A stretch of 64,000 nt of DNA from an uncultured Gammaproteobacteria bacterium (GTDB lineage: Bacteria; Patescibacteriota; Patescibacteriia; Magasanikbacterales; UBA922), in assembly GCA_964349825.1 (NCBI GenBank), contig CAYGHM010000002.1, positions 620 to 64,619 of the forward strand, read 5' to 3'. The notes beneath the pieces were generated by a model. That model was given only the letters and a program-made list of their open reading frames with translations, ran no database searches and was not told the DNA's origin. The position numbers and the translations under genes are program-made. The first letter of the stretch is position 1, and each line of letters begins with the position of its first letter. This document shows positions 7,302 through 64,000 of the stretch, piece by piece.

Positions 7302-7339
7302 CCCTTATTATACAAAAATCCGCCATAAAGGCGGATATG

Positions 7340-7423: not shown

Positions 7424-7502
7424 ATCTAACTCATTTACAATGACAGCTAGTGATTATTAGTTAACAACGGTTAGTTAGCAATCATTAAATGTCCATTAAT
7501 TG

Positions 7503-7594
7503 TGGGCCGGGCATGATTCGAACTGCGAAGCCCGCCAACGTCGGCGGGCAGCAGATTTACAGTCTGCCCCGGTTGACCGCTTCGGTACCGACCC
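7503..7594 (-). tRNA. tRNA-Tyr (GTA), second copy, with an unusually long GC-rich variable arm
   Basis: Same acceptor, D, anticodon and T arms as copy 1. The variable arm is TGCCCGCCGACGTTGGCGGGCTTCGCA and the total length is about 92 nt. Confidence 0.6.
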
Positions 7595-7688
7595 AAGATC
7601 AATATTCAATTTTCAATTTCTAATTTTTAATTGCATTCCACTTAGCACATAAATGGAAATTGAGAATTGAAAATTGGAAATTTCTAAT

Positions 7689-14789: not shown

Positions 14790-14801
14790 AGGCCTAAAAA
14801 A

Positions 14802-15755
14802 TTATGGTATACGCAATAAAATTTGTTCAATAAGGAGACGAGGATGAATATTTTTTGCAATCAGACGTTCCGCACTCACGATACTATTATCAATATCGAG
14901 TACTTGGCTGCGAGATACACGAGGCACACCCTCTATCTCATGAATAGATCGGTCATCCTCTTTTTCTTGGTGCATCAATATGTCTCTCAGAAGTAAACGC
15001 CAGGTACGAAGGACGTCTTTTATTTCCTCGCGAGCCTGAATCGCATCAGTCTTATCCCCAAACAAGGAATCAACTGAAGACAATTTGTCATGAAATGTTT
15101 TTCCAAACAATTGCATGAACCGATGTACCTCTTCTTTGTAGCGCGCAAATTCATCACTAGTATGATACCACGAAATTGCCAATCCGGGGAGGCCTCTCGA
15201 TAAACGAGCAATATCTTCCGCTTTGTTTTCCTCTGCGCCCTCTATTTTTATCTGCTGTGCAATCAACATTGGGTCAACCGGAGCAAATCGAATCATGTGG
15301 CAACGAGAACGAATGGTAGGAAGCAAAAGCGCTTCGTCCGTGGTTAAAAGAAAAAGATGACTATTTGGGGACGGCTCTTCTAGCGTTTTTAATAATGCAT
15401 TCGATGCACTTGTACTCATTCTATTCGCCTCGGGAATAATAACAATTTTATGTCCATGTGCTTTCAATGCACTCCGCGCCATAAAAAGCGCAACGTCTTT
15501 CATTTGATCAATAGAAATATCTTTTTTTGTTTTTCCTGTTTTTTCATCTTGCAATCGTTCGACTATGAGCGCATCCGGAGATGCCCCCACGCGATCACTC
15601 GACGTGCCAAGAAGTACCCCTGCTAAATGACGGGCAACCCGTTCTTTTCCCACATGCTCTGGCCCAATAAAACAATACGCATGACCAAACATCCCCGCTT
15701 TCTGCGCTTGTTCCAATAATCTAATAATTGTATCGTGGCCGATGATAGTATTCAT
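14802..15755 (-). CDS. holB: DNA polymerase III delta-prime subunit
   Basis: HAYCFIGPEHVGKERVARHLA (Walker A-like) and LLKTLEEP; about 317 aa. Confidence 0.75.
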   Translation of the reverse strand: MNTIIGHDTIIRLLEQAQKAGMFGHAYCFIGPEHVGKERVARHLAGVLLGTSSDRVGASPDALIVERLQDEKTGKTKKDISIDQMKDVALFMARSALKAHGHKIVIIPEANRMSTSASNALLKTLEEPSPNSHLFLLTTDEALLLPTIRSRCHMIRFAPVDPMLIAQQIKIEGAEENKAEDIARLSRGLPGLAISWYHTSDEFARYKEEVHRFMQLFGKTFHDKLSSVDSLFGDKTDAIQAREEIKDVLRTWRLLLRDILMHQEKEDDRSIHEIEGVPRVSRSQVLDIDNSIVSAERLIAKNIHPRLLIEQILLRIP

Positions 15756-30790: not shown

Positions 30791-30909
30791 CATGCGAACT
30801 ACGAAAAATACGAAAGTACGAACAATACAAAGCGAAAATGATTCTGAACTGACAAATTTACAAGTTACCCCCATTTCGTAATTTCGTCCCATTTCGTAAT
30901 TCGCATGTT
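30788..30909. mobile_element. MITE-like repeat copy C (diverged, with internal ACGAA/TTTCGTAA direct subrepeats) in the divergent promoter region
   Basis: aacatgcgaactacgaaa...tttcgtaattcgcatgtt; its right end abuts TTGTCT-N17-TATAAT just upstream of the 30968 gene. Confidence 0.5.
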
Positions 30910-30967
30910 TGTCTATCACGATTACATAGAGTATAATACCGCTAGGCCCAAAAGTCAAAGTATCATT

Positions 30968-36451: not shown

Positions 36452-37606
36452 GTGATAAAATATAGACTAAATATTATGTGGAAACTCTATTTAATGACGA
36501 TCCGATCTTGGTATGCTCGCCACTGGTGGTTAACACCACTGACTGTTTTTGTTATCTGGAGAATTATTTTAGAAATTATCGGACAGTCTGCCTTCATCCT
36601 ACATCCAGACATAATAATACCTTGGAAAGATAATCCCAATCCTCCAATTTGGGCTCGATGGGATAGCGGTTGGTACTACTCGATTGTAAATGACAACTAT
36701 CACCTAAAAGAAACAGGAGCAATGTCCAATGTCACCTTTTTTCCACTCTTCCCTCTTTTGTGGAAATTTATTGAAATTATTACTCCCTTAAAAGGTTTTG
36801 CCGCAGCCCTCTTTACGACCAATATTCTCACCTGTTTAGGATTTATTATCTTTTACCGCTGGATGAAAGATAAGTGGGATAAACTAATTGCGTTAAAAGC
36901 GTTAATAGCTCTAGCAATTTTTCCGACCTCTTTCTTTTTTATCAGTGCCTATAGCGAATCAACACTTTTTCTCCTTATAGTAACAACACTTTTACTCAGC
37001 TCAAGACAGCAATGGAAGCTCGCAGCAATAACAGTTGCACTAGCGAGCGCGTCGCGTCCCACAGGTATTTTTTTATGGCCGCTCTTGCTATGGTTCTGGT
37101 GGTTACACTATGCAAACAAGTCAAAACCACGGCATGAATTTTTCACAATATTATTTATTCCACCAGTTGGACTTATTATTTTTTCCGCATATCTCTATAT
37201 CAAAACAGGTAATCCTCTTGCATGGTTCACCAGCCAATCAGCTGCTGGACGAGATTTAGTATTACCTACTAATCTCTTGTGGGCATATACCAAAAATATA
37301 TTTGTCAGAGGAGATTATTGGTTAAAACATGTGGCAGAAATGGGAGCATTACTTTTTACAGTAGCCCTATTACCCACATTGAGAAAAATACATCCAGCCT
37401 ATGTATTCTATACTATATTAAATCTTCTTCCATCACTTTTTAGTAATACGCTCACAAGCATACAACGTTTCGTCCTAGTGATAGCACCTTTATTTTTGGC
37501 AGTTGTGATGCAAAAAAAATGGATATATGCGATATATTGTACAATTTCTGGTATTTTACTCTTATACAGCATTCTTTGTTTTATTACTTTTCAATGGGCA
37601 GGTTAA
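36452..37606 (+). CDS. polytopic membrane protein, putative GT-C-type glycosyl/mannosyltransferase (DUF2029/PIG-V-like)
   Basis: About 10 TM helices; the loop motif WARWDSGWYYSIVNDNY is typical of the GT-C mannosyltransferase-like family. Confidence 0.45.
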   Translation: MIKYRLNIMWKLYLMTIRSWYARHWWLTPLTVFVIWRIILEIIGQSAFILHPDIIIPWKDNPNPPIWARWDSGWYYSIVNDNYHLKETGAMSNVTFFPLFPLLWKFIEIITPLKGFAAALFTTNILTCLGFIIFYRWMKDKWDKLIALKALIALAIFPTSFFFISAYSESTLFLLIVTTLLLSSRQQWKLAAITVALASASRPTGIFLWPLLLWFWWLHYANKSKPRHEFFTILFIPPVGLIIFSAYLYIKTGNPLAWFTSQSAAGRDLVLPTNLLWAYTKNIFVRGDYWLKHVAEMGALLFTVALLPTLRKIHPAYVFYTILNLLPSLFSNTLTSIQRFVLVIAPLFLAVVMQKKWIYAIYCTISGILLLYSILCFITFQWAG

Positions 37607-43238: not shown

Positions 43239-43808
43239 ATGAAGTCATTGACAGCATATCTTCTCGTTCTTTCTACCTTGGTATTTATCGGCGCAGGGTG
43301 CAAATCTACTGAAGTAAAGAAAACCGAGGTGTCTGCTCCTCAACCAGAACCGATTGTTCAGGAGGAAAAACAAGATGCTAAAAATCCAGCAACTACAGAT
43401 GAAAAAAATGATGATGAGGTAAATACACAAGGTGAAGTGAAGACTGACATAAAAACCGTATCCCCTATCACAAAACCACAACCTACCCCTGAAAAAAAGG
43501 AAGAAACGCAACCAAAACCAGTCGTGTCAGCAGTAAAAGAATTCACCATGGTTGCCAAAAACTGGAACTTTGAGCCATCAACCATCACGGTCAAAAAAGG
43601 TGATACAGTTAAACTTCATATTAAAAGTGTCGACGTTGATCACGGATTTACCTTAAGCGATTTCGGTGTAAGTAAAACATTGAAACCAGGCGAAACGGTA
43701 ACTGTCGAATTCATTGCTGATAAAGCGGGCAATCACTCCTTCTTCTGCTCAGTATTTTGTGGCGCTGGACACAAAGAAATGCGAGGGACACTCGTGGTAA
43801 CCGAATAA
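43239..43808 (+). CDS. CuA-type cupredoxin-domain lipoprotein (COX2-like copper centre, no oxidase partner nearby)
   Basis: Lipobox LVFIGAGC; C-terminal VDHGFTL...FFCSVFCGAGHKEM matches the H...CxxxCGxxHxxM CuA ligand spacing. Confidence 0.6.
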   Translation: MKSLTAYLLVLSTLVFIGAGCKSTEVKKTEVSAPQPEPIVQEEKQDAKNPATTDEKNDDEVNTQGEVKTDIKTVSPITKPQPTPEKKEETQPKPVVSAVKEFTMVAKNWNFEPSTITVKKGDTVKLHIKSVDVDHGFTLSDFGVSKTLKPGETVTVEFIADKAGNHSFFCSVFCGAGHKEMRGTLVVTE

Positions 43809-43876: not shown

Positions 43877-44866
43877 ATGGTAGTTATTATCATTATCTTA
43901 TTAATCCTTATTATCATCCCACTTATGTCCCACGAAACTGGCGCATCACCAAAACATGTATTCATGTACCTGCTCCTCATCGCCATGCTTTACGTAAGTG
44001 TGGTCAGTTTTATTGCAATTATTTTTCAATATATTAATGTTCTTCTTCCTGATCCACTTCAATACTATTTACCGGGAATTTACGATACCATTCGATTTGC
44101 CTCATCCTCACTTGTTGTGGCCTTCCCAGTATATTTACTCATGTCTTGGCTTCTTGAAAAAGAATATATCCGTGTCCCCGAAGCAAAACAATTAAAAAGC
44201 CGAAAATGGCTTGTCTACCTCACTCTCTTTATTGCGGCAATCACTATCATTGTTGACTTGGTTCAATTGGTAAATAACTTTTATCGTGGTGAACTAACAT
44301 GGTCATTCACATTGAAAATAATGACTGTTCTTATTGTGGCGGCCACAGTATTTGGTTATCACTTATGGGATTTACAAAAAGACCTAGAAAGTAAAGTCAA
44401 AAAAATGATTGGAGGAATCATCTCAGTCGTTGTCCTCGCAACACTTATTGCCGGATTCTTCATTGCTGGCTCTCCACAACACCAACGAAATGTACGATTT
44501 GACCAGCAGCGCACGACAGATTTGAATACTATTCAATATCAAATTCTTGATTATTGGCAGAGAAAAAAAACATTACCTGCCCAATTGTCTGATTTGGAAG
44601 ACTCCATTACTGGATTCCAAGTACCAAAAGATCCGGCAACTGGTACAGCGTATACATATGAAATAAAAGGAAACCTTTCTTTTACTCTCTGTGCTGATTT
44701 TGCAGCGGAACAAGAAGGAGGAAAGGGAGACTCCCGCAATATTGCCCCCATGTATCCTATGAATGAATTTGGCGCGAACGACAACTGGTCTCACAAGGCA
44801 GGCCGCACCTGTTTCGACCGAACTATCGACCCGGAGAGACATGCTTTGCCACAACAGAAAATATAG
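43877..44866 (+). CDS. hypothetical polytopic membrane protein with hydrophilic C-terminal domain
   Basis: Five to six TM helices in the N-terminal 200 aa; the C-terminal DLNTIQYQILDYWQRKKTLPAQLSDL...DPATGTAYTYE is weakly pseudopilin-like. Confidence 0.4.
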   Translation: MVVIIIILLILIIIPLMSHETGASPKHVFMYLLLIAMLYVSVVSFIAIIFQYINVLLPDPLQYYLPGIYDTIRFASSSLVVAFPVYLLMSWLLEKEYIRVPEAKQLKSRKWLVYLTLFIAAITIIVDLVQLVNNFYRGELTWSFTLKIMTVLIVAATVFGYHLWDLQKDLESKVKKMIGGIISVVVLATLIAGFFIAGSPQHQRNVRFDQQRTTDLNTIQYQILDYWQRKKTLPAQLSDLEDSITGFQVPKDPATGTAYTYEIKGNLSFTLCADFAAEQEGGKGDSRNIAPMYPMNEFGANDNWSHKAGRTCFDRTIDPERHALPQQKI

Positions 44867-52303: not shown

Positions 52304-52386
52304 CAAAAACAGACAAACAAAAACACCCCTCTTACGGGGTGTTTATTTTTCTAATATGGCCAGCCCTGAAAACACTTGTGGTCATA

Positions 52387-52815
52387 TCAGGGCACTTGGC
52401 CGGGCACCTCCTTGGGGTAGTTGATCGGGCGCAGATAACCGCGCCGGGTGACGTAGTTCGTCAGGTAGCTGCTCGTGTAGCTGAAAAAGACGGGCGACAC
52501 ACACGACATCAGGAGCTCAGGCGAATCATTCCACCAATGGCCTGTGAAACTCATCGCAAACGTGAGCGATCCAGCAGCAAGACTCCCCAAGAAATACGAA
52601 CGAAACGCATTGCGAATGGGAGAAAAATGCTGGACAAGCCGTGCGGATACACCAGTTGACAGGAAGCTCGCACATGCCTGGGCGAAGGCAGCAGAAGTGG
52701 CCAAGCCTACCCCATGCTCCCAATTCACACAACAGGCAATTATTGCCTGAAACACAGCGGCCGCACAAGCGAACTTCAGGTTGAACAGGTTGTGATACAT
52801 CAAACGCCAATTCAC
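52387..52815 (-). CDS. GC-rich small membrane protein (hypothetical), GTG start
   Basis: Minus-strand promoter TTGACG-N18-TATACT (52841-52870), SD GGAGGTGA and a GTG start. Hydrophobic segments AAAVFQAIIACCV and FLGSLAAGSLTFAMSF. About 58% GC. The + strand ORF 52294..52659 was rejected. Confidence 0.4.
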   Translation of the reverse strand: MNWRLMYHNLFNLKFACAAAVFQAIIACCVNWEHGVGLATSAAFAQACASFLSTGVSARLVQHFSPIRNAFRSYFLGSLAAGSLTFAMSFTGHWWNDSPELLMSCVSPVFFSYTSSYLTNYVTRRGYLRPINYPKEVPGQVP

Positions 52816-52872
52816 TCGTCACCTCCACTTTGTCGCTATCAGTATAGGCATGGAAAGGTGTTTACGTCAATA

Positions 52873-54243: not shown

Positions 54244-54371
54244 ATTTCAACAAAATGATTAATAAACCCGTACATAAGGTAAGATAATTGAAAATAAAGC
54301 AGATTACCTATATACTAATGGTAGATTAGAATAAAGTTCACAAGATAGCAAGTCTATAAATAAACTCTGAT

Positions 54372-56930
54372 ATGGAACCGAAACAAATCCTAGAAAACTT
54401 CTCAACCCACTTAAAAAATGTGATTGCTCGCGCAATTTCTCTCGCCGCGCAATTTAAGCATGAAAAAGTACTTCCGGCGCACCTCCTTCTTGCCATAACA
54501 GAAGAAACAGGGTGCGTAGGAGCTGAGCTCCTCAAAAAGAATAACTTTACCAATAAATCAATTGTATCATATTTAGCTACTCTCAAAACAATTGATTTGG
54601 AAATAAGTTCTGAACAAGGAAAATCAGCTATCGCAACCTTGCCAGAATTACATGAACATGCAAAACAAGTGTTGGAAAAAGCCATGCTTATTGCCTATGA
54701 GTATGCGCACAACCATGTAGGAACAGAGCATCTTTTGCACGGAATTATCACAACAGAAAGTCCAGATTTGTATGACATTTTTATTGCAAGTAAAATAAAA
54801 ACAAAAGAAATTGAAGAACAGCTCCAAACTATTTTTCAAAGTACTAGTAAATTCCCTGATATAGAAGAAATTTCTGAGGTAATGAATCATCTTGATGATA
54901 TGGGAGAAGATATGGAAGACGGACATGAGATGCCGGGACCGCATCCACGACATCCGCCTGAAAAAACAAAAATGAGAAAACCGGGCCCAAGTGCGCTCGA
55001 CATGTTTGCAACCCGACTTACTGACGAAAAAATTCAGGAAACCATCGACCCTGTTATTGGTCGGGAAAAAGAAATCGAACGCGTCATCCACGTATTATCT
55101 CGTCGCAATAAAAATAATCCGATTCTTATTGGTGAGCCGGGTGTTGGAAAAACAGCGATTGTTGAAGGGCTGGCAAAACGGATTACTGCCGGTACTGTTC
55201 CGGCAGTACTCAAAAATAAGCATATTTTTTCTCTCGACATGACCCTGCTTATCTCCGGGACAATTTACCGAGGGGAATTTGAAGCACGCATCAAACAACT
55301 GATCGATGAAGTATCTGCCCATCCTGACTACATTCTTTTTATTGATGAAATACATAATATTATCGGCGCAGGATCAAACCAAGGTACTATGGATGCAGCC
55401 AATATTTTAAAGCCAGCACTTGCTCGTGGTAAATTACGCTGTATCGGCGCAACTACATTTGATGAATACAAAAAATATATTACCAATGACCCGGCGCTTG
55501 AACGACGATTCCAGTCTATCCGCGTGGATGAACCAAGCAAAGGTGATGCTACCAATATTCTTCGCGGGATTAAAAAATACTACGATGCATTTCACCATAC
55601 CGATATTACCGACGATGCAATTCAAGCATCGGTAGAATTAAGCGCGCGCTATATCCATGATAATTTCTTACCCGACAAAGCGATAGATCTTATTGATGAA
55701 GCGGCTGCAGCAGTCCGAACAAAACAAAAAATAACACCACAAGAAGAACAACTCTTTTCATTACAACAACGTGTGAATGATTTATTAAAACAAAAAGAAG
55801 TTGCGATTGATGAAGAAAAATTGGAACAAGCAATTAAACTCAAAGAACAATTAAAAAAGATAGAAAAAGAATTGGCAACAATTCAAAAAAAGGCCAAAAA
55901 ACCAACCAAAAAACGAGCGCTTGTCGGTCGTGATGATATTATTCGTGTTCTTAGTACACGTCTTAATATTTCTCCAGAAATACTCGCGCAAAAAGAATGG
56001 GATCGACTGAGAACGCTTGATACTCGCTTAAAAAAGCATATTATTGGACAGGATTCTGCACTCACTACTATCTCGACCGCATTAAAACGTTCTCATTTGG
56101 GAACAAATCCAAATAGCCGCCGGCCGATTGCTTCTTTTCTCTTTGCTGGCCCAAGCGGCGTAGGAAAGACAGCATTAGCCAAAGCGCTCGCAGAGGAACT
56201 CTACCAAGATCCAAAAGCCTTAATTCGTCTCGACATGAGTGAATTTTCCGAAGGCCATGGTATTTCAAAACTACTCGGCTCCCCTGCTGGATATGTGGGA
56301 TACAAAGACCGCAATCGTTTTGTTGATGAATTAAAACAACGCCCCTATTCAGTTGTTCTTCTCGACGAAATTGATAAAGCACATCCGGATGTGCTCAAAC
56401 TCTTATTACAAATTCTTGACGAAGGGACATTGACTGATAGCGGCGGAAAACACTTATCGTTCCAACATACTGTCATTATCTTGACCACCAATATAGGTGC
56501 TGAATTATATAAAAGTGCAGGTATTGGATTTGGGAGTGTTGGGAGCGATGGAAATGCGCAAGTAGAGCGACGGACGTCAGCCATTGAAGCGCGGTTACAA
56601 GACGCTTTCGGTACCGCCATACTCGGACGCCTTGATGCCCTCTGTGTCTTTAATCCGCTCACACACGATACGGTCACGGCTATCGCCAAAAAACATCTTG
56701 AGGCACTCTCAGCAGCGATGAAAGAAAAAAATAATATTGCCATTCATATTACGGAACCAGCAATTGAACAACTCATCAAAGACGCAAAATACGCGGATAT
56801 GGGGGCTCGCCAGATTGAACGCGTTGCAGACCGAGTAGTACAAGATCTTCTTGTCGACATACTTATGAAAACAAAACATAAAAAACAATATAAGCTTGTT
56901 CATACTGATAATACCTATAAATTGGTATAA
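54372..56930 (+). CDS. clpC: Clp ATPase chaperone (ClpC/ClpB family): two AAA+ modules and Clp_N repeats
   Basis: [15 protein letters not shown] and [15 protein letters not shown] Walker A motifs, with sensor and arginine-finger regions; 852 aa. Confidence 0.85.
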
Positions 56931-56938: not shown

Positions 56939-57289
56939 ATGCCAACAGCCGACCAGGAGCGTTTGTGGGCGCATCAATTGCAAAAGAATAAAAACCAAGA
57001 GCATCAAACAAATGCGACCGATTGGGGCCTAAAAGCAGCCTCAATTGTTCAAGATATGACACAAACAAAAAAATATCTAAAACAAGCACTAGAAGAAAAA
57101 AATACAAAAAAAATTCAGGAATACGCAAATACGCTTATTAATCTTCGTGCAGAACAATTTACTTGCGCACTACATCAATACAGAAGAGATGTACAAAAAA
57201 CTGATCCTGATTTTATATCCCGAATGGTTGCTCAGTATAAAAAAGATTGCTCCAATCTTCTTGCAGCAATTACCACATTGCACACATAA
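56939..57289 (+). CDS. hypothetical protein
   Basis: ORF directly after clpC; no motifs. Confidence 0.3.
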   Translation: MPTADQERLWAHQLQKNKNQEHQTNATDWGLKAASIVQDMTQTKKYLKQALEEKNTKKIQEYANTLINLRAEQFTCALHQYRRDVQKTDPDFISRMVAQYKKDCSNLLAAITTLHT

Positions 57290-57298
57290 TCAGCTCCC

Positions 57299-58435
57299 AT
57301 GTCTGAAGAACCACTCGATCTCAATTCACTAAAAACGGGAATGGATAGCGCGCTCCGGAAAGCACTTCCTGATTTTTTGTCTTCCGATGAAAATGCCGAT
57401 ATTATTTCGAGACAAATTGAAGAGATATTGAAAAATAGTCTACCAAACATGGTCGCGGAATCCGCGCAATCTGGCATGGCGCCGCAACAAGCAGAAGACA
57501 TGCTCAACCAATTTGGTGCAAGCCCTCAAGAATCATCACAACCACAAGAAGACGATGCCCAAAGTGGGGCATACGAGGCAGCAGAACCAGATGAGTACGG
57601 CAAAGAAAAAAATGACGAAGAAAATGCGGAAGACAAAGACTCCACTGGTGAAGAACAAGGTAATGAAAAAGACGAAGCGGGAGAACCAGGACAAGAAGAA
57701 GCTGCCGCTGAACCAGAAAATAATCCACAAGAACAAGAACCCCAAACAGAAGCTCCGGCAGCACCAGATAAAAACCCCCAAGAAAATCCCTCTTCTCCAG
57801 AAGGTGAAACAGAAGAACAACCACAAACAAAAGAGGGAGATTCGCTTGGATTTGATAAGCCCACGACAGAACACCCCATGTACGACGAGGCAAATGCAGC
57901 GACCAATCCTGAAGAAAAAAAAGATACAAAGCCAGATGAACAAGAACGTGAAAAAAAACAAGCCGAAGCGCTCCAGCAGGAAAGAAATCAAGCACGTGCA
58001 CAACAAACACAAAATGCCCAACAAGGGCAACAGGCAGCCAATATTTCTTCCCAAAAAAAACAACTTCTTACGAATGCTTCCCGTCTTACGATCAAAGGGT
58101 TGTTTGCATTAAAGGCGGGATATATCGTGACCGACTCTATTGATGTTCTTGAATCTATAGACGGAGCCACAGTTTCTGCCCTCTTCAATATCTTTACTGT
58201 TGCAACTACTGCCAGCATATTTATGGCACAAAATGGAGAAACAAAAAAATTTATTCTCAAAAAATATGCACTTAAAGCATGTGGAGCAGCAATTGCAGAA
58301 TCCATTCCTATTGTGAATATCGTTCCATGGGATACAATAAACGGTTTTATGCTCGCACGTGCTGTCAAAAAGCAAAAAAAAGAGTATACTGAAGAAGCAA
58401 AACGCCTTGAATCAGGAAATCAAACGTCATCATAA
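57299..58435 (+). CDS. acidic low-complexity (E/Q/P-rich) protein with hydrophobic C-terminal region
   Basis: Long EEQPQ/EKDE low-complexity stretch, then LFALKAGYIVTDSIDVLE...ASIFMAQ. Overlapping ORFs in other frames are low-complexity artefacts. Confidence 0.4.
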   Translation: MSEEPLDLNSLKTGMDSALRKALPDFLSSDENADIISRQIEEILKNSLPNMVAESAQSGMAPQQAEDMLNQFGASPQESSQPQEDDAQSGAYEAAEPDEYGKEKNDEENAEDKDSTGEEQGNEKDEAGEPGQEEAAAEPENNPQEQEPQTEAPAAPDKNPQENPSSPEGETEEQPQTKEGDSLGFDKPTTEHPMYDEANAATNPEEKKDTKPDEQEREKKQAEALQQERNQARAQQTQNAQQGQQAANISSQKKQLLTNASRLTIKGLFALKAGYIVTDSIDVLESIDGATVSALFNIFTVATTASIFMAQNGETKKFILKKYALKACGAAIAESIPIVNIVPWDTINGFMLARAVKKQKKEYTEEAKRLESGNQTSS

Positions 58436-58473
58436 AAATAAAAAATTAACTTCCTTAAACCGCAATTACCCAT

Positions 58474-59718
58474 TTGTCATTTCTCCCTATGGACAAAAGA
58501 CGTATCATTATTATCACTATCTTCACGCTCGTGTGTATCGGCATTGGCTATCTTCTTTATCGTGTATTCTTCTATACGGCACCCAAACCACTTATAACAA
58601 CAACAGAAGAATCAACAGAAGGATCTCAATTTCCTCAAGCGAATCAAGGTGGCCCTAAACCAGGAGAAATTACCGAAACAGGAGCACTCCCAGCAAGTGA
58701 AACGCAGCAATCTGGCTCAGAAGAAGGCGGACCTGGAACAGATTTCACCCCAGGACAAGTAGACCAAGTAGTAAGCAATGCCATCACTGGTGTATCCAAA
58801 GATTCCACCTCTGGCAATCCACGTTTTTATAATAGCCAAGATGGAAAATTCTATCGGATCGGCGCAAATGGACAACCTGAAGCATTAAGTGACCAAGTAT
58901 TCTATAACGTTGACGATGTTACCTGGTCTCCAATATCCGATGAGTCAATTATTGAATATCCAGATGGGGCAAATATTTATTATAATTTTGATACAAAAAA
59001 ACAGGCAACGCTTCCAAAACATTGGGAATCATTTTCTTTTGCTCCGAGTGGAGATAAAATTGCCGCAAAAAGTCTTGCCTTCTCACCTGAAAATCGCTGG
59101 CTCGTTGCATCTGATCCAGACGGCAACAATATTGAACTTGTTGAACCGTTAGGAAATAATGCAGACAAAGTTATTGTGGATTGGTCACCAAATAAACAAA
59201 TAGTTGCCTTGTCTACTACAGGAGAAGATTTGGGAAGCGATCGTCAAGAAGTACTTTTTATTGGAAAAAATGGAGAAAATTTTAAATCAACCGTAGTCGA
59301 AGGACGTGGTCTGATAACAAACTGGTCTCAAACAGGAGAAAAATTACTATATAGCGTACATAGCGCGCGAAACGAATTCAAACCTGAGTTATGGATTGTC
59401 CACTCTGCAGGTGATGCAATTGGTGAAAATCGCAAACCTATCCAGCTCAATACATGGGCAGACAAATGTACATTTACTGATGATCGTTTTGCGTATTGTG
59501 GTGTGCCAAGAGAATTACCAAAAGGCGCAGGCTTTGCCCCATCACTTGCAGACAATATTCCTGACGATCTCTACAAAATTGATGTTGAAACTGGTATAAA
59601 AATAAAATTGCCAATAGCAACTGACCACGTCATTGAATCCATGTTTGTCGGCAAAGATGGAAAAACGATTTATTTTACGGATAAAAACCAACCAGGTTTA
59701 TTTACCGTATCCCCATAA
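58474..59718 (+). CDS. membrane-anchored PD40/TolB-like beta-propeller repeat protein
   Basis: N-terminal TM; repeated WSP-type segments (VDWSPNKQIVAL, FAPSGDKIAAKS, TNWSQTGEKLLY). Confidence 0.45.
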   Translation: MSFLPMDKRRIIIITIFTLVCIGIGYLLYRVFFYTAPKPLITTTEESTEGSQFPQANQGGPKPGEITETGALPASETQQSGSEEGGPGTDFTPGQVDQVVSNAITGVSKDSTSGNPRFYNSQDGKFYRIGANGQPEALSDQVFYNVDDVTWSPISDESIIEYPDGANIYYNFDTKKQATLPKHWESFSFAPSGDKIAAKSLAFSPENRWLVASDPDGNNIELVEPLGNNADKVIVDWSPNKQIVALSTTGEDLGSDRQEVLFIGKNGENFKSTVVEGRGLITNWSQTGEKLLYSVHSARNEFKPELWIVHSAGDAIGENRKPIQLNTWADKCTFTDDRFAYCGVPRELPKGAGFAPSLADNIPDDLYKIDVETGIKIKLPIATDHVIESMFVGKDGKTIYFTDKNQPGLFTVSP

Positions 59719-59723
59719 TTGCT

Positions 59724-60365
59724 ATGGATACCAAAAAATTACTCCTCATTTTTATTCCTGCCCTTCTCTTTGTATTACTCGGGTTTGCTTTTCGTGTGTA
59801 CCAATACGAACCACTGATCCCAAACAAAAAAAATACGCAGGAAGAAAAAAAACTTGATCTTGTTCCCCTTCTCGCTGAAGATCCTATAATCGGAGAAAAA
59901 AAAGCTCCTATTACCATAGTAGCTTTTGAAGATCTCGCTTGTGGCGGCTGTCGCGCACAATCAGAAATATTCGACGCGCTCATTGCACAATACCCAGGAA
60001 AAATAAAAATTATTTGGAAATTATTAAACGTCACCACATTTCCTCACAATACTGAGTTGGCACATGATTATGCCTTTTGCGCTCACGAACAAGGAAAATT
60101 TGTTGAGTTTAAAAAAGCTGCATTTGCCAATAGTACAAATTTATCTGAAAACATACTCAAAACCATTGTTTCATCTAGTGGTTTAAACGAGAAAAAATTC
60201 CTTGCGTGTCTTGCAACTGATCGACCAAAACAATACCGAGAAAAAAACCACGCTATTGCCTCCTTACTTCATATTCAGGCAGTACCGGCATTGTTCATGG
60301 ACAATAAACAAATCCAAACACCAGCTACTATAGAACATTGGAAGACACTTCTTAATCTTGAATAA
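59724..60365 (+). CDS. DsbA-family thiol:disulfide oxidoreductase (membrane-anchored)
   Basis: N-terminal TM; thioredoxin CxxC motif in EDLACGGCRAQSEIF. Confidence 0.65.
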   Translation: MDTKKLLLIFIPALLFVLLGFAFRVYQYEPLIPNKKNTQEEKKLDLVPLLAEDPIIGEKKAPITIVAFEDLACGGCRAQSEIFDALIAQYPGKIKIIWKLLNVTTFPHNTELAHDYAFCAHEQGKFVEFKKAAFANSTNLSENILKTIVSSSGLNEKKFLACLATDRPKQYREKNHAIASLLHIQAVPALFMDNKQIQTPATIEHWKTLLNLE

Positions 60366-60379
60366 ATAATTCTGGCTTT

Positions 60380-62173
60380 ATGCGGATTGGCAATACATCT
60401 CTCTCCACTTTGAGCGCAAGAGTAATCGCGGTTTTTTCTGTCCTCATTTTTTTCTGTTTACCAGTATCAGCATTCGCAAAAAATAAAGTCGCAGTTATCG
60501 GCTCATCGAGCTATGCAGGAGGCTGTAGTTATTCGTACGGTTTTGTTAATAAATTAAAAAAAGCCTATCCAGACACTGAATTTGTCTGTTTTACGAAGAG
60601 TGGTTCATCGGCAAATTTTTTCCTAGAACAATACAATGCCAATGTGAAAGGAAAAGGCTATAACGATATTATTGTATTTGGCGGATTAAATGGACTTGGT
60701 AATGCAAGTGGATTAAAGAGCACTCAACAGCATTTAAAAAGTATTTTTATTGCAGCCGAAGCAGAAAAAACTCGTGTGATCGTGACAGGCAGCCAACCCT
60801 TTAAAGGATACAGCTCTTGGACCCAAGAATGGTCTGATAATTTGAAAAAAAATAATGCGTGGCTTGCGACAAAACCAAACGGACTTGATATTTACATAGA
60901 AATATATCCACTCGTTGATAAAAACAATGATGATGCGCTCGACAGTGAATTTGATTCTGGGGACCATTTGCACATGGGTTCAAAAGGACACGCCCTTCTA
61001 TTTGGACTCATTGCCAATAGCGCATATGGTGCCAGTGTCCCTGCGCCAGCAGCAGGAGCAGCAACAGCAGCAGAAGCAGACACGCCTCCTTCTGGACCAC
61101 CCCCTGTTGCATTAGAAGAAATCAAAAAAATTATTGAGGTACCACAAATAAAAATAAAAATCCCAGGTGTTAATTTTACACCCGTCGATGACATACCCAA
61201 TCTGGTTAAAAAAGAAGCGGGACTTAATGGAAAAGAAGGTGTCTATATTACCCTTCCTTTTATTGGAGAATACCTTGCAAGCATCTACCGTTTTGCTGTC
61301 GTTGCAGCATCTATTCTCGCTGTCATTTTTATTATCATTGGTGGATTTATTTGGACCACATCTGCTGGAAGCGCTGACAAAATCACCTCTGCCAAAACCA
61401 TGATCCAGCGTGCCCTTACTGGCCTTGTCCTTGCTACAGGTTCCTATGTTCTTCTCTTTACTATCAATCCAGAACTCGTACAATTCAAAAGTCTTAAAAT
61501 TTTATATATTCCTACGTCTGATATAGACGGATTAGTTTTTGATGGAAATGATGATAATACACCTGAAGATAATTCAGGAAAACCGTATGGTTCAACAGCT
61601 TATGATGAAACATTTAAAAAATTTGCAACCTGCTCGGGTATGAATTGGGAATTATATAAAGCAGTAGCACATCATGAATCTGGTCTCAATCCATCCATCG
61701 TTAACCCAAGAGGGACAGCAACTGGCCTGTTCCAGTGCATAGATGGTAATGCGCATAGAACATGTCGTCGTGTATTAAAAGGTATCGGATGGGATGACAA
61801 ATGCGATAATCCAGGCCTCAAAGATCCTGAAGTTAATACTGCATATGCGACACTCCTCTTCAGATCTAATGCCAAAACAATTAATGGCAGATGCAGCAGC
61901 GCTTCATTTGATGATAAAGTATTTATGTTATATTTTGGACATAGCAGCGGTCCTGGTGCCCTCACGGCAGCAGTGCGTTTGTGGGGATGTGATATTGATG
62001 ATTGGGCAAAGGAAGGAGAGTGGCCAAAAGAAGCTTTATACGGTCTAGGAGGAAAGAAAATTTACAATGGCGCCTCTCGTACCTATATCGAAAAAATCGT
62101 AAAAAAAATTAATAAATTTGATATTAAAAATTTCGAAGGACCAAAAGATAGTTCCTGCCCTATTGGAAAGTAA
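60380..62173 (+). CDS. secreted multi-domain cell-wall enzyme: SGNH/GDSL esterase domain, Ala/Pro linker, two-helix membrane hairpin module, SLT lytic transglycosylase domain
   Basis: Signal peptide; SGNH blocks (VIGSSS, FGGLNG, DSGDHLH); linker PAPAAGAATAAEADTPPSGPPP; hairpin FAVVAASILAVIFIIIGGFIWTTSAGSADK...ALTGLVLATGSYVLLFTINPELV; SLT motifs VAHHESGLNP and ATGLFQ; Cys-rich. Confidence 0.55.
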   Translation: MRIGNTSLSTLSARVIAVFSVLIFFCLPVSAFAKNKVAVIGSSSYAGGCSYSYGFVNKLKKAYPDTEFVCFTKSGSSANFFLEQYNANVKGKGYNDIIVFGGLNGLGNASGLKSTQQHLKSIFIAAEAEKTRVIVTGSQPFKGYSSWTQEWSDNLKKNNAWLATKPNGLDIYIEIYPLVDKNNDDALDSEFDSGDHLHMGSKGHALLFGLIANSAYGASVPAPAAGAATAAEADTPPSGPPPVALEEIKKIIEVPQIKIKIPGVNFTPVDDIPNLVKKEAGLNGKEGVYITLPFIGEYLASIYRFAVVAASILAVIFIIIGGFIWTTSAGSADKITSAKTMIQRALTGLVLATGSYVLLFTINPELVQFKSLKILYIPTSDIDGLVFDGNDDNTPEDNSGKPYGSTAYDETFKKFATCSGMNWELYKAVAHHESGLNPSIVNPRGTATGLFQCIDGNAHRTCRRVLKGIGWDDKCDNPGLKDPEVNTAYATLLFRSNAKTINGRCSSASFDDKVFMLYFGHSSGPGALTAAVRLWGCDIDDWAKEGEWPKEALYGLGGKKIYNGASRTYIEKIVKKINKFDIKNFEGPKDSSCPIGK

Positions 62174-62243
62174 TACTATTACACAAGCAATTAATTGTCA
62201 CCGGTAATCGATACACATAGATACATCACCATTACCGCTTTAA

Positions 62244-63536
62244 TTGCTTTTTTCATCTATGAAAACAAAACATACTCTCCTTAAAAAAATACTCTTCCTT
62301 GGTGGAATTATTCTTTGTACGACACTTCTCTTTTCTACGTTACCCGCACAAGCAGAAACAAATTTGCAAGATATTATTTCTGCGCCACAACCTCGTATTA
62401 AAATTCCTGGACTTAATTTTAGTAGTAATGAAACCGTAATTAACAGTCTCAAAGAAGAGGATGGTCCAGCAGGTAACGGACAATATATTAGCATCCCCTA
62501 TATCGGAGAATATCTTGGTACAATCTATCGATTTGCAGTTGTTTCAACATCTATCATTGCTGTTATCATCATCATTATTCAAGGTTTTGTTATTACTACG
62601 TCTGCTGGAAATTCGTCTCGTATGTCTCATGCCAAAGAGCGAATTGGACAGGCACTTACCGGTCTTATTATTGCTGCAGCATCGTATATAATTTTATTTA
62701 CCATTAATCCGGAATTGGTGAAATTTAAAAATCTCAAAGTATTATATATAAAAAGACAGGATATCCAATTATCCCAATTTGATTCTTCTGATACATTCGA
62801 TGGAACTCCCATCTCTGTTCCGGATGCAAAAAGCAAGTTCAATTATACTATTACTCAATACAAACAATTTGATGGACGGTGGGCAGAAAAACCAATGGAA
62901 TGTAAACCTCCTTTTGCTGGAAACTTAGATATAAAAAGTAATGGGTGTGGATTGGTCTCCAGCCTTATTATTCTTAATGCATTATACCCAGATAAAAAGA
63001 TGGACCCGATCCAATTTATGGATTTTTATCATTCGCATAGTGCCGGCGCTGGCGGAAGCTGCAATTCTAGTGATTATATAAGTCCTTCCTACTACAAAAC
63101 AGAGTGGATGCAAGAACGGTATCCCGGATTAAACGTTCGTCTCAGTCGTACCCAAGGAAATGCCACTGCAATGACAGAAGAATTAAATAAAGGTAATCTG
63201 ATTATTGTGCTTGTGGGTGCCAGCGCCCTTACGAAGGGTGGACATTACATTGTCGTATATGACGTAAGTGAAAAGGACGGACGCTATTGGGCACATGTAT
63301 CTGATGCTGGTGCTGGCCAACCAAAATGTGTCGTCGATTTAGATGGAAAAAATTTAGAAAAAGATCACGAGATAAAGTTAAAAATAAAATCAAATCAATG
63401 TGGAAGCGGCAGCCAATTAGAGCGATGTAAGACTTGTGGTGGTACCACGCTTATGGGACCAGATGTCTATCCACTTTCTTATGTATTACAAGCAGAAAAA
63501 GGATCGCGCATTGTATTCGAACCGCCAAAAAAATAA
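62244..63536 (+). CDS. secreted protein: same two-helix membrane hairpin module fused to papain-like (C39/NlpC-P60-like) cysteine peptidase domain
   Basis: Signal peptide. The module IKIPGLNF...YIGEYLGTIYRFAVVSTSIIAVIIIIIQGFVITTSAGNSS...ALTGLIIAAASYIILFTINPELV is paralogous to the one in the previous gene. Putative catalytic Cys in SNGCGLVSSLIILNA; His in GGHYIVVYDV; Asp in HVSDAG. Confidence 0.5.
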   Translation: MLFSSMKTKHTLLKKILFLGGIILCTTLLFSTLPAQAETNLQDIISAPQPRIKIPGLNFSSNETVINSLKEEDGPAGNGQYISIPYIGEYLGTIYRFAVVSTSIIAVIIIIIQGFVITTSAGNSSRMSHAKERIGQALTGLIIAAASYIILFTINPELVKFKNLKVLYIKRQDIQLSQFDSSDTFDGTPISVPDAKSKFNYTITQYKQFDGRWAEKPMECKPPFAGNLDIKSNGCGLVSSLIILNALYPDKKMDPIQFMDFYHSHSAGAGGSCNSSDYISPSYYKTEWMQERYPGLNVRLSRTQGNATAMTEELNKGNLIIVLVGASALTKGGHYIVVYDVSEKDGRYWAHVSDAGAGQPKCVVDLDGKNLEKDHEIKLKIKSNQCGSGSQLERCKTCGGTTLMGPDVYPLSYVLQAEKGSRIVFEPPKK

Positions 63537-63542: not shown

Positions 63543-64000
63543 ATGTCAAAAGAAACTATTTTATTTGCCTGTAACGGCTGTGACGCTCAATACCAGAAAT
63601 GGATTGGGCGTTGTTTAGAATGTGGAAAGTGGGGCACAATTACAGAAATAGAAAACGCAAAGTCAAATAAGCAAATAAGCAAAAATAAAACGCCAGGAAC
63701 AAAAACACAGACATTACAAGACATTTCTGGAAAAGATATTGCGAGAAAAATGACCCACATGCCAGAATTTGACCGAGTACTTGGCGGTGGTATTGTACCA
63801 GGAAGTTTGATACTCCTTGGTGGTGAGCCAGGTATTGGAAAATCAACGTTAACGATCCAGCTTGCATCCGCCCTAGCAAATACCTTGTATATTTCTGGAG
63901 AAGAATCAGTGGAACAGGTAAAATTGCGCGCTGACCGGCTAGGTATTACATCCACGACATTGAAACTCGCGAATGAAACTAATGCTGAAATCATTTGTGC
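63543..64000 (+). CDS. radA: DNA repair protein RadA/Sms (N-terminal part; continues beyond the window)
   Basis: C4 zinc finger CNGCDAQYQKWIGRCLECGKWG; Walker A GGEPGIGKST; no stop before the window end. Confidence 0.85.
   Translation, partial: MSKETILFACNGCDAQYQKWIGRCLECGKWGTITEIENAKSNKQISKNKTPGTKTQTLQDISGKDIARKMTHMPEFDRVLGGGIVPGSLILLGGEPGIGKSTLTIQLASALANTLYISGEESVEQVKLRADRLGITSTTLKLANETNAEIIC

What the first reader, a model, noticed from the sequence alone, without database searches (positions are those of the whole stretch)
56939..63536. Six-gene secreted/surface cassette inserted between clpC and radA
In Firmicutes-type genomes clpC is immediately followed by radA in the ctsR-mcsAB-clpC-radA-disA operon. 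Here clpC (54372-56930) and radA (63543-) are on the same strand but separated by six co-directional, tightly spaced genes. These are a hypothetical protein, an acidic E/Q/P-rich low-complexity protein, a PD40 beta-propeller protein, a DsbA-like oxidoreductase and two Cys-rich secreted cell-wall-active enzymes. This looks like an accessory surface module inserted into a conserved housekeeping linkage.
Basis: partly seen in the sequence, partly recalled or inferred. Interest (0 to 1): 0.7.

Follow-up and report, generated by a model that had tools for sequence, protein, structure and literature searches.

The report
Pilin-anchored cell-wall enzyme operon in Magasanikbacteria
The six genes between clpC and radA are real, but they are a conserved envelope operon of an ultra-small Patescibacteria lineage (Magasanikbacteria), not a recent insertion, and its last genes encode cell-wall-cutting enzymes built around a membrane hairpin related to type IV secretion pilins, an architecture I found described in none of the papers I searched.

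Summary
Six co-directional, tightly packed genes lie between a ClpC-type ATPase and radA.

The genome is Candidate Phyla Radiation (Magasanikbacteria), not Firmicutes. The order clpC-g1-g2-g3-DsbA-[enzymes]-radA recurs across this lineage:
- 32 distinct loci carry both flanks, 4.3-11.5 kb apart and never adjacent.
- The propeller protein g3 has 2262 homologues.

The variable part is the slot between DsbA and radA. It holds 1-4 genes. Each encodes a signal peptide, a conserved ~120-residue two-helix module homologous to Patescibacterial VirB2-like T4SS pilins (PF18895), and interchangeable peptidoglycan-active domains. These include SGNH esterase, SLT, Amidase_2, M15/VanY, C39-like, M23, NlpC/P60, CHAP and glucosaminidase. 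In this window they are SGNH+SLT (g5) and a C39-like cysteine peptidase (g6). Close relatives carry different enzymes.

Most likely function (inferred): a membrane-tethered cell-wall hydrolase module whose folding depends on DsbA. Whether it acts on the cell's own wall or a host's wall is unresolved. No virB4 was found nearby.

Verdict: new variant of known kinds; moderate interest.

The parts
54288..54316 (+). Sigma-70-like promoter candidate (TTGAAA-17-TATACT) in the pgm/clpC divergent intergenic region. It is a possible start of a clpC-to-radA transcription unit.
   Evidence: Consensus scan only. No convincing + strand terminator lies between 56930 and 63540. Co-transcription is inferred, not shown.
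54372..56930 (+). ClpC-type class I Clp/Hsp100 ATPase (upstream flank).
   Evidence: Clp_N, AAA, AAA_lid_9, AAA_2 and ClpB_D2-small. Below the equivalog cut-offs for ClpB and ClpA. GIGFG at residue 717. 49-53% identical to CPR homologues.
56939..57289 (+). g1: small soluble, probably helical cytoplasmic protein (116 aa), weakly conserved.
   Evidence: No TM segment. Only sub-threshold Pfam/NCBIfam hits. 22-25% identical to its positional counterparts. A 105-137 aa soluble ORF follows clpC in 29 of 40 distinct loci.
57299..58435 (+). g2: acidic low-complexity protein with hydrophobic segment(s) near the C-terminus (378 aa).
   Evidence: 73 D+E against 37 K+R; hydrophobic peak at 292-310. No family hit. 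Positional counterparts are 317-643 aa, 12-30% D+E, with a strong TM segment near the C-terminus in 39 of 40 loci.
58489..59718 (+). g3: membrane-anchored extracytoplasmic seven-bladed beta-propeller (409 aa). It is the most conserved gene of the cassette.
59724..60365 (+). g4: membrane-anchored DsbA-like thiol:disulfide oxidoreductase (213 aa).
   Evidence: Thioredoxin_4 79.5 bits (cut-off 23.2) and DSBA 39 bits. N-terminal TM at 5-23. CGGC at residue 73. Follows g3 in 65/67 distinct loci.
60380..62173 (+). g5: signal peptide, then SGNH/GDSL esterase (nt 60497-60997), pilin-like two-helix module (nt 61142-61513) and SLT lytic transglycosylase (nt 61613-61957); 597 aa, 10 Cys.
   Evidence: SLT 39.5 bits (cut-off 21.3). 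Lipase_GDSL_2 30.8 bits (cut-off 32.9). T4SS_pilin 16.4 bits. Motifs GSSS41, GGLNG101, DHLH195 and HHESG431. Module HMM score 171.9 bits. Homologues with the same GDSL+SLT architecture: P0173-P0175 (59-61% identical over the ~33% of g6 that they match, i.e. the module) and L001.
62259..63536 (+). g6: signal peptide, then pilin-like two-helix module (nt 62385-62753) and C39_2-like papain-fold cysteine peptidase (nt ~62859-63311); 425 aa, 8 Cys.
   Evidence: Module HMM 167.3 bits. No Pfam hit for g6 itself. Its 62%-identical orthologue P0167 scores 26.4 bits on Peptidase_C39_2 (cut-off 24). More distant relatives score 45-68 bits. Gln208, Trp213, Cys235, His334 and Asp354 are invariant in alignment A4. 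The AF2 module region (residues 60-160) is a beta-hairpin plus two long helices, pLDDT 72-87.
63543..64000 (+). radA/sms, 5' part (downstream flank; cut by the window end).
   Evidence: TIGR00416 at 1.4e-48; Zn ribbon plus P-loop. Full-length radA sits at this position in relatives.

Best explanation
The region is a lineage-conserved envelope operon of Magasanikbacteria (Patescibacteria/CPR), probably transcribed together with clpC and radA. It has two parts.

Fixed core: g1 (small cytoplasmic protein), g2 (acidic disordered membrane protein), g3 (membrane-anchored extracellular beta-propeller) and g4 (membrane-anchored DsbA).

Variable slot: 1-4 genes for cell-wall enzymes, two in this window.

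Proposed mechanism:
- Each slot protein is exported by a signal peptide.
- A ~120-residue hairpin of two hydrophobic helices, homologous to the VirB2-like T4SS pilins of Patescibacteria, holds it in the membrane. The catalytic domains on the N-side, the C-side or both therefore sit on the outer face next to the peptidoglycan.
- DsbA (g4) introduces the disulfides that these Cys-rich ectodomains, and the propeller's invariant Cys pair, need.
- In g5 the SGNH esterase would remove O-acetyl groups from MurNAc so that the fused SLT lytic transglycosylase can cut the glycan strand.
- g6 would cut peptide stems or cross-links with a Cys-His-Asp papain-type site.
- The propeller and g2 would act as scaffold or regulator.

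Shown: gene order and its conservation, domain identities, module homology to pilins, conservation of catalytic residues, and turnover of the enzyme domains.

Inferred: topology, the DsbA-substrate relation, the esterase-to-transglycosylase coupling, roles of g1-g3, co-transcription, and the target. I favour the cell's own wall (growth, division, or passage of surface machines) over a host wall, but only slightly.
For: Conserved synteny:
- The same order is found in L001, L004, L027 and L029 and in 80 metagenome loci.
- Non-redundant tallies are 38/39, 65/67, 42/47 and 20/24 for clpC, DsbA, module protein and radA.

Module homology to pilins:
- The A1 profile hits free-standing PF18895/PF04956 proteins at E 1e-17 to 1e-4.
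- 42 of 66 slot proteins hit PF18895 at E<=1e-3, best 3.9e-11.
- A related pilin-YkuD fusion and a free pilin sit next to virB4 in other CPR.

Enzyme census of 66 slot proteins: Amidase_2 12, M15_4 12, SLT 9, GDSL_2 8, VanY 6, C39_2 5, M23 4, NlpC/P60 1, CHAP 1, Exo_endo_phos 1. Glucosaminidase is also seen.

Architecture and Cys content:
- All 66 have a C-terminal extension of 181-595 aa, and 42 have an N-terminal one over 150 aa.
- Cys content averages 2.4%, against 0.35-1.45% in cytoplasmic proteins of the window.

Catalytic motifs are present in g5 and g6. The loop between the two helices is basic (K, K, R), which fits an N-out/C-out topology.

Published precedent:
- O-acetyl groups block lytic transglycosylases, and an SGNH esterase (Ape) relieves the block (PMC6174289).
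- MdbA-type DsbA is needed for exported-protein folding in monoderm Actinobacteria (PMC9974433, abstract).

No compositional anomaly. Neighbouring genes are housekeeping.
Against: - There is no experimental datum for any of these proteins.
- g5's GDSL hit (30.8 bits) and pilin hit (16.4 bits) are below Pfam cut-offs, and g6 has no Pfam hit of its own.
- The g6 structure model is poor (pLDDT 56.8) and matched nothing.
- The propeller fold is generic and says nothing about function.
- A strict housekeeping autolysin role fits badly with the swapping of enzyme specificity between close relatives and with loci that hold only one carboxypeptidase-type enzyme.
- A few loci break the pattern: L064-L066, L081, L088 and L108.
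- No DsbB/VKOR partner was looked for.
Confidence: 0.55

Rival explanations
1. Host-directed arsenal. The pilin-anchored enzymes are displayed on the surface of an epibiotic cell to breach or digest the wall (and lipids or nucleic acids) of a host bacterium. The slot diversifies because hosts differ.
For: - Enzyme types turn over among relatives with 74-87% identical g3.
- The slot holds 1-4 tandem copies.
- Non-wall domains occur, such as Exo_endo_phos, and giant LVIVD-repeat surface proteins occupy the same slot in L066.
- Pilin arrays of Patescibacteria are similarly variable and are thought to adapt to hosts (PMC12102498).
- T4SS and pilins are essential for epibiotic growth in a saccharibacterium (PMC10633639).
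Against: - No host is known for Magasanikbacteria. (That rests on my own knowledge, not on a tool result.)
- The enzymes are tethered by a membrane hairpin, which limits their reach.
- The locus sits among housekeeping genes and is nearly universal in the lineage.
- The enzyme classes are the same as ordinary autolysins.
Confidence: 0.3
2. T4SS/pilus accessory. The fusions are the VirB1-equivalent wall-openers of the Patescibacterial T4SS. Alternatively they are minor pilin subunits that co-assemble with free VirB2-like pilins and carry enzymes on the pilus.
For: - The module is homologous to PF18895 pilins.
- A pilin-YkuD fusion lies inside a PrgI/TraC/VirB4 cluster in a Minisyncoccia genome (L115).
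- In class ABY1, virB4 neighbourhoods (+/-20 genes) are reported to include radA and recG (PMC12102498).
- Monoderm T4SS hydrolases are also two-domain enzymes (same paper).
Against: - No virB4 homologue was detected by tblastn in the window (56 kb upstream of the cassette) or in any related locus. Apart from ClpC, DnaE and PheT, the only ORF over 500 aa in the window (775 aa) has just one weak, sub-threshold Pfam hit and no ATPase hit.
- Domains of 180-600 aa on a pilin are hard to fit into a pilus lattice (inference).
- Sequence beyond radA in this genome could not be obtained.
Confidence: 0.15
3. One reading: a recently acquired accessory island inserted into a conserved clpC-radA pair.
For: clpC and radA are directly adjacent in Firmicutes loci L009-L013. 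The enzyme genes vary between relatives.
Against: - g1-g4 are conserved across 78 distinct g3 sequences (77 related loci plus the window), and clpC is never adjacent to radA.
- Base composition and GC3 are native.
- The cassette has no integrase, flanking tRNA or repeats.
- Other CPR classes show no clpC-radA linkage.
Confidence: 0.05

Closest known systems
VirB2-like T4SS pilins of Patescibacteria (Pfam PF18895 T4SS_pilin; TrbC/VirB2 PF04956)
   Same: Both have a signal peptide followed by two hydrophobic helices joined by a short basic loop. Profile-level sequence homology is clear. Both occur as tandem, variable-copy gene arrays.
   Different: - Known pilins are about 100-190 aa and free-standing. 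Here the hairpin is embedded in 350-920 aa proteins between or before enzyme domains.
- The genes lie in a clpC-radA locus with no virB4 detected nearby.
- Pilus formation is untested.
VirB1-type two-domain peptidoglycan hydrolases of monoderm conjugation systems (PrgK of pCF10, TraG of pIP501, CwlT of ICEBs1)
   Same: Both are membrane-associated, multi-domain wall hydrolases that combine a glycan-cutting domain (SLT or muramidase) with a second wall-active domain (PMC12102498; the CwlT comparison rests on my own knowledge).
   Different: - The anchor here is a pilin-like hairpin, not a single N-terminal helix.
- The partner domain of SLT in g5 is an SGNH esterase rather than CHAP/NlpC.
- The genes are not in a conjugation or T4SS cluster.
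- The repertoire of fused enzymes is far wider.
Ape (SGNH O-acetyl-peptidoglycan esterase) acting with lytic transglycosylases in Neisseria
   Same: An SGNH esterase and a lytic transglycosylase work on the same glycan, and de-O-acetylation is a prerequisite for transglycosylase action (PMC6174289). g5 carries Ser, Gly-x-Asn and Asp-x-x-His motifs and an SLT 'ES' motif.
   Different: In g5 the two activities are fused in one membrane-tethered polypeptide. The substrate of the SGNH domain is not established; it could be another ester.
MdbA, the membrane-bound DsbA-like oxidoreductase of Actinobacteria
   Same: Both are monoderm, N-terminally anchored thioredoxin-fold CxxC enzymes that would fold exported Cys-containing proteins (PMC9974433 abstract).
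   Different: g4 is encoded directly upstream of its presumed Cys-rich substrates. Its active site is CGGC. No VKOR/DsbB partner was identified here.
Firmicutes ctsR-mcsA-mcsB-clpC-radA-disA operon
   Same: clpC and radA are on the same strand in the same order.
   Different: There is no ctsR/mcsAB upstream. Six genes lie between clpC and radA. No disA follows radA in relatives.

Membership tests
Firmicutes-type ctsR-mcsAB-clpC-radA-disA operon | clpC immediately followed by radA | tested here: not met
   6.6 kb and six genes intervene. The distance is 4.3-11.5 kb in all 32 distinct loci that hold both genes.
Firmicutes-type ctsR-mcsAB-clpC-radA-disA operon | ctsR, mcsA and mcsB upstream; disA downstream | tested here: not met
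   Upstream is pgm on the opposite strand. Downstream of radA in relatives is recG or IMPDH on the opposite strand.
T4SS pilin (PF18895 / TrbC-VirB2) | Sequence match to the family model | tested here: inconclusive
   - g5 scores 16.4 bits and g6 has no hit, against a cut-off of 26.6.
- At family level, 42/66 slot proteins match at E<=1e-3, best 3.9e-11.
- The module profile finds PF18895 proteins at E down to 1e-17.
T4SS pilin (PF18895 / TrbC-VirB2) | Signal peptide plus two hydrophobic helices with a short cytoplasmic loop | tested here: met
   Hydropathy scan. AF2 helices at 86-119 and 124-154 of g6, pLDDT 72-87. Basic loop sequence.
T4SS pilin (PF18895 / TrbC-VirB2) | Small free-standing subunit (about 100-190 aa) | tested here: not met
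   g5 is 597 aa and g6 is 425 aa. All 66 slot proteins carry at least 181 aa beyond the module.
T4SS pilin (PF18895 / TrbC-VirB2) | Encoded with virB4 and other T4SS genes | tested here: not met
   No virB4 homologue by tblastn in the window or in any related locus. Sequence downstream of radA in this genome was not available.
T4SS pilin (PF18895 / TrbC-VirB2) | Polymerises into a pilus | not testable with these tools
   Needs microscopy or biochemistry.
DsbA/MdbA thiol:disulfide oxidoreductase (g4) | Thioredoxin fold with a CxxC motif, exported or membrane-anchored | tested here: met
   Thioredoxin_4 79.5 bits (cut-off 23.2). CGGC at residue 73. N-terminal TM at 5-23.
DsbA/MdbA thiol:disulfide oxidoreductase (g4) | Re-oxidising partner (DsbB or VKOR) | not tested
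   Not searched for.
SLT lytic transglycosylase (g5 C-terminal domain) | Family model above cut-off and catalytic Glu in an E-S motif | tested here: met
   SLT 39.5 bits (cut-off 21.3). HHESG at residue 431.
SGNH/GDSL hydrolase (g5 N-terminal domain) | Family model above cut-off | tested here: inconclusive
   30.8 bits against a cut-off of 32.9. Other slot proteins reach E 5.8e-20.
SGNH/GDSL hydrolase (g5 N-terminal domain) | Blocks I, III and V (Ser; Gly-x-Asn; Asp-x-x-His) | tested here: met
   GSSS41, GGLNG101 and DHLH195.
Peptidase_C39_2 papain-fold cysteine peptidase (g6 C-terminal domain) | Family model above cut-off | tested here: inconclusive
   g6 has no hit. The 62%-identical orthologue P0167 scores 26.4 bits (cut-off 24). 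L099, P0176 and L085 score 45-68 bits.
Peptidase_C39_2 papain-fold cysteine peptidase (g6 C-terminal domain) | Conserved Gln/Cys/His/Asp catalytic set | tested here: met
   Q208, C235, H334 and D354 are invariant in alignment A4.
TolB/PD40 beta-propeller (g3) | PD40 repeat model match | tested here: inconclusive
   No hit for g3 itself. PF07676/PF26550 hits are on record for some homologues.
TolB/PD40 beta-propeller (g3) | Beta-propeller fold | tested here: met
Genomic island / mobile insertion | Deviant composition, integrase, flanking tRNA or repeats, patchy presence in relatives | tested here: not met
   GC and GC3 are native. None of the six products hits an integrase or recombinase family. 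The nearest tRNA is 21 kb away. g1-g4 are present throughout the lineage.

The most novel reading that the evidence does not exclude
The hairpin is still a working pilin. The fusion proteins would be incorporated, as minor or tip subunits, into the VirB2-like pilus of the Patescibacterial T4SS. This would give an 'enzyme-armed pilus' carrying interchangeable peptidoglycan hydrolases, esterases and nucleases to a host cell's wall. The clpC...radA/recG setting would then reflect coupling of wall breaching to DNA uptake and recombination. The evidence does not exclude this: the module is homologous to pilins, a pilin-enzyme fusion lies inside a T4SS cluster in L115, and ABY1 T4SS loci are reported near radA/recG.
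Probability: 0.1. Interest if true: 0.85.

Novelty: new variant of a known kind. Interest (0 to 1): 0.55.

Why it matters
Patescibacteria make up a large share of bacterial diversity, and most are thought to live attached to other cells. How they remodel or breach cell walls is largely unknown. Their VirB2-like pilins and T4SS are the only envelope machines shown so far to be essential for epibiotic growth (PMC10633639).

A large family of pilin-hairpin-enzyme fusions offers concrete, testable candidates for the wall-cutting step. The family has at least 3,600 clusters (50% identity) at E<=1e-10, and nearly all of the 150 best are long proteins with the module internal. The members sit in a fixed, easily recognised locus together with their own DsbA. 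The family is also a natural example of domain shuffling on a conserved membrane anchor.

For annotation, clpC-radA synteny rules taken from Firmicutes should not be carried over to CPR genomes.

Tried and rejected
I used the g3 alignment instead.
- Sequence searches of the PDB with the g6 C-terminal domain and with g3 gave only chance-level hits.
- The AF2 model of g6 from an 18-sequence alignment was poor (pLDDT 56.8). Foldseek against the PDB gave nothing at E<=0.001. The C39 assignment therefore rests on sequence alone.
- Fold searches with g3 returned only generic propellers. The afdb50 library was unavailable.
- I tried to read beyond the window end. Exact-match look-ups for g6 and g3 returned only short contigs (3.7 and 1.7 kb for g6; 7.0 and 4.0 kb for g3).
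- tblastn with a Minisyncoccia VirB4 and other T4SS proteins found nothing in the window or in Magasanikbacteria loci. The same search with a Moraniibacteria T4CP as query found one homologue, in L088.
- Recent horizontal transfer is rejected on composition.
- An RNA element in the GC-rich stretch 52345-52870 is rejected. There was no Rfam hit at E<=1 and the fold z-score was -0.58.
- Literature searches for pilin-hydrolase fusions in CPR found no description. Absence from this library is not proof of novelty.


Full report
**1. The observation**

The ORF map shows eight co-directional genes on the + strand with gaps of 8, 9, 53, 5, 14, 70 and 6 nt.

- 54372-56930 is a class I Clp ATPase with Clp_N, two AAA modules and the D2-small domain. 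It has a GIGFG motif at residue 717.
- 63543 to the window end is radA (TIGR00416, 1.4e-48).

The six genes between them:
- g1 (56939-57289): 116 aa, no TM segment.
- g2 (57299-58435): 378 aa, 73 Asp+Glu, hydrophobic near the C-terminus.
- g3 (58489-59718): N-terminal TM helix.
- g4 (59724-60365): Thioredoxin_4 at 79.5 bits, DSBA, N-terminal TM, CGGC motif.
- g5 (60380-62173): signal peptide, Lipase_GDSL_2 at 5e-7, SLT at 4.7e-10, 10 Cys.
- g6 (62259-63536): signal peptide, 8 Cys, no Pfam hit.

The description is therefore confirmed, with small corrections to the starts of g3 and g6.

**2. Which organism**

- The best ClpC relatives in one-genome-per-species contigs are CPR MAGs. One is labelled Paceibacter (53%) and two Magasanikiibacteriota (52%). 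A fourth contig, labelled an uncultured gammaproteobacterium but followed by a g1 homologue, is 49% identical. Saccharibacteria and other CPR follow at 36-40%.
- g3 has 2262 homologues. The best 120 are 53-100% identical and about 405-415 aa. Most of those that carry a source name are called Magasanikbacteria or Magasanikiibacteriota (lineage).
- One database entry is 100% identical to g3 (P0001).
- The neighbourhood is housekeeping: DnaE, PheS/T, TsaD, an M50 protease, LemA, an M48 protease and PGM.

The 'Firmicutes-type genome' premise is therefore wrong.

**3. Synteny**

- tblastn of the window proteins on the ClpC loci showed the same cassette between clpC and radA in L001 and L004. Firmicutes loci L009-L013 have radA 75-105 nt after clpC.
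- Gene calls around g3 homologues on long contigs gave the same order: pgm(-), clpC, a ~110-aa gene, a 560-640-aa gene, g3, DsbA, one to three large genes, then radA.
- A metagenome scan with a g3 alignment returned 80 more loci. After collapsing identical g3 sequences there are 78 distinct ones, including the window.

| Feature | Distinct loci with the feature / testable |
|---|---|
| clpC within 4 kb upstream of g3 | 38/39 |
| DsbA directly after g3 | 65/67 |
| Pilin-module protein directly after DsbA | 42/47 |
| radA downstream (loci with at least 9 kb of flank) | 20/24 |

- 32 distinct loci hold both clpC and radA. The two genes are 4.3-11.5 kb apart and never adjacent.
- Between clpC and g3, 29 of 40 loci have a small soluble ORF followed by an acidic ORF with a TM segment near the C-terminus. 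Most of the others have one such acidic membrane ORF.
- Exceptions are few: L064/65, L066, L081, L088 and L108/109.
- Other CPR classes have no radA in the downstream sequence held (10 kb, but 3.4 kb in L006 and 6.4 kb in L021). Instead they have relA/hisS, a surface protein, a T4CP, yidC, or uppP/eno.
- Composition of the cassette is native: GC 0.395 vs 0.411, and GC3 0.27-0.29 vs 0.32 for clpC/radA. The slightly high tetranucleotide distance may reflect the A-rich acidic repeat region of g2, though I did not test that.

An ancestral insertion remains untestable here.

**4. The variable slot and the module**

- g5 and g6 share a central stretch of about 120 residues (PQxxIxIPGxxF ... IPFxGEY ... 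helix ... basic loop ... helix ... INPxLVxF). So do all large proteins between DsbA and radA in relatives (alignment A1).
- An HMM of this module finds only g5 and g6 in the 64-kb window.
- Pfam gives consistent sub-threshold hits to T4SS_pilin (PF18895) over nearly the whole model. Of 66 complete slot proteins, 42 match at E<=1e-3, best 3.9e-11.
- The A1 profile finds free-standing 97-192-aa CPR proteins that carry PF18895, and sometimes PF04956 TrbC/VirB2, at E 1e-17 to 1e-4 in a 5.8-billion-sequence database.
- The AF2 model of g6 is poor overall. It places a beta-hairpin and two long helices in the module at pLDDT 72-87.

I conclude that the module is a diverged VirB2-like pilin hairpin.

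VirB2-like pilins are known to be widespread in Patescibacteria, to form variable tandem arrays and to be essential in one cultivated species (PMC12102498; PMC10633639; PMC12857230). None of the passages I read mentions fusions to enzymes.

**5. What is fused to the module**

Pfam census of the 66 slot proteins:

| Domain | Proteins |
|---|---|
| Amidase_2 | 12 |
| Peptidase_M15_4 | 12 |
| SLT | 9 |
| Lipase_GDSL_2 | 8 |
| VanY | 6 |
| Peptidase_C39_2 | 5 |
| M23 | 4 |
| NlpC/P60 | 1 |
| CHAP | 1 |
| Exo_endo_phos | 1 |
| FGE-sulfatase | 1 |

- Glucosaminidase and YkuD occur in further relatives.
- Every slot protein has 181-595 residues C-terminal to the module, and 42 have more than 150 residues N-terminal to it. 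Mean Cys content is 2.4%, against 0.35-1.45% for cytoplasmic proteins of the window.
- A scan of 1.84 billion cluster representatives with the g5 module gave 16,461 hits at E<=1e-3 and 3,613 at E<=1e-10. Nearly all of the best 150 are 300-920-aa proteins with the module internal. Some carry 2-4 copies.
- g6's C-terminal domain is a C39_2-like papain-fold peptidase. Its 62%-identical orthologue passes the Pfam cut-off, more distant relatives score 45-68 bits, and Gln/Trp/Cys/His/Asp are invariant in the alignment.
- g5 has the SGNH blocks (GSSS41, GGLNG101, DHLH195) and the SLT Glu-Ser motif (HHESG431).

**6. Turnover in the slot**

| Locus | g3 identity to window | Slot content |
|---|---|---|
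| Window | - | SGNH-module-SLT, then module-C39 |
| L114 | 87% | SGNH-SLT, then a truncated gene |
| L112 | 75% | SGNH-SLT, then a 459-aa module protein with an unassigned domain |
| L113 | 77% | module-glucosaminidase, then module-C39 |
| L111 | 74% | module-glucosaminidase, then module-C39 |

More distant loci have 1 gene (11 loci), 2 (8) or 4 (1). L066 has two giant LVIVD-repeat proteins in the slot.

**7. Link to T4SS**

- In a Minisyncoccia contig, a pilin-YkuD fusion lies inside a PrgI/TraC-like/VirB4 cluster (L115). A free pilin related to the module lies next to a virB4 fragment near dnaA (L116).
- A Falkowbacteria contig has an array of pilin genes: six in tandem plus one more about 2 kb upstream, seven in all. 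No virB4 lies within 10 kb.
- The Patescibacteria T4SS survey reports that in class ABY1 the virB4 neighbourhood (+/-20 genes) commonly includes radA, recG and comF.
- In my loci, radA is often followed by recG. However, tblastn with VirB4 and other T4SS proteins found nothing in the window or in any Magasanikbacteria locus. A Moraniibacteria T4CP used as a further query found one homologue, in L088.
- I could not obtain sequence beyond the window end.

The T4SS connection is therefore homology-based and positional at best.

**8. Mechanism**

Best-supported reading: a membrane-tethered cell-wall hydrolase module whose folding depends on DsbA. Its fixed partners are g1, g2 and the g3 propeller, which has an invariant Cys pair.

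- The basic inter-helix loop and the signal peptide predict that both flanking domains face outward.
- The SGNH-SLT fusion fits the known rule that O-acetylation of MurNAc C-6 blocks lytic transglycosylases, and that an SGNH esterase (Ape) removes the block (PMC6174289).
- The DsbA parallels MdbA of Actinobacteria (PMC9974433).
- A promoter-like site precedes clpC, and no convincing terminator lies inside the cassette. Co-transcription is plausible but unproven.

Whether the enzymes act on the producer's wall or on a host's wall is open. Conservation and the housekeeping setting favour the former. Domain turnover and copy-number variation favour the latter.

**9. Novelty and score**

All the parts are known kinds: VirB2-like pilins, VirB1-like and autolytic hydrolases, DsbA and a beta-propeller. 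New, as far as the searchable literature shows, are two things. One is the fusion of a pilin hairpin with interchangeable wall enzymes. The other is its fixed chromosomal slot behind a dedicated DsbA in a whole CPR lineage.

I rate it a new variant of a known kind, with interest 0.55.

Noticed in passing
window 52345-52870: A stretch of about 525 bp at about 50% GC (window mean 41%) lies between the GGACT-family gene, which has a terminator-like hairpin at 52321-52344, and pgm. Relative L112, with the same gene order, has only 44 bp there. The stretch holds a 142-aa hydrophobic ORF on the minus strand (52387-52815) with no Pfam hit. There is no Rfam hit, no RNA-fold signal and no notable flanking repeats. 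It may be a recently acquired small membrane-protein gene.
   Followed up: partly
window 7339-7423 and 7502-7595: Two tandem tRNA-Tyr(GTA) genes. The second is 94 nt long and scores only 38 bits on the Rfam tRNA model.
   Followed up: no
window 30905-33232 (+) and 36452-37606 (+): Two ORFs, 775 aa and 384 aa, with no significant Pfam family. A cupredoxin-like protein (43239-43808) and a DUF5671 protein (43877-44866) lie nearby.
   Followed up: no
L066 12078-20900: In this Magasanikbacteria locus the slot after DsbA holds two giant proteins (1624 and 1260 aa) with LVIVD repeats and DUF4215 domains. A pilin-module gene follows them.
   Followed up: partly
L088 16669-17919 (-): A T4SS coupling-protein (VirD4-like) homologue lies about 3 kb downstream of the pilin-module enzyme gene, in a locus where radA was not found.
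   Followed up: no
P0182, P0200, P0203: Some proteins of the module family carry 2-4 tandem copies of the pilin-like hairpin within one polypeptide.
   Followed up: no
L027 11897-13588; L029 12052-14490 and 15592-17955; L004 ~13850-15374: Many slot proteins carry an unassigned N-terminal Cys-rich domain of about 70 aa just before the module (pattern C..D.DC.....C...C.C...C..YGG...W.C). No Pfam hit to this stretch was reported for these proteins.
   Followed up: no
L121 5676-10803: A Falkowbacteria contig has seven free-standing PF18895 pilin genes, six in tandem and one about 2 kb upstream, with no virB4 within 10 kb.
   Followed up: no
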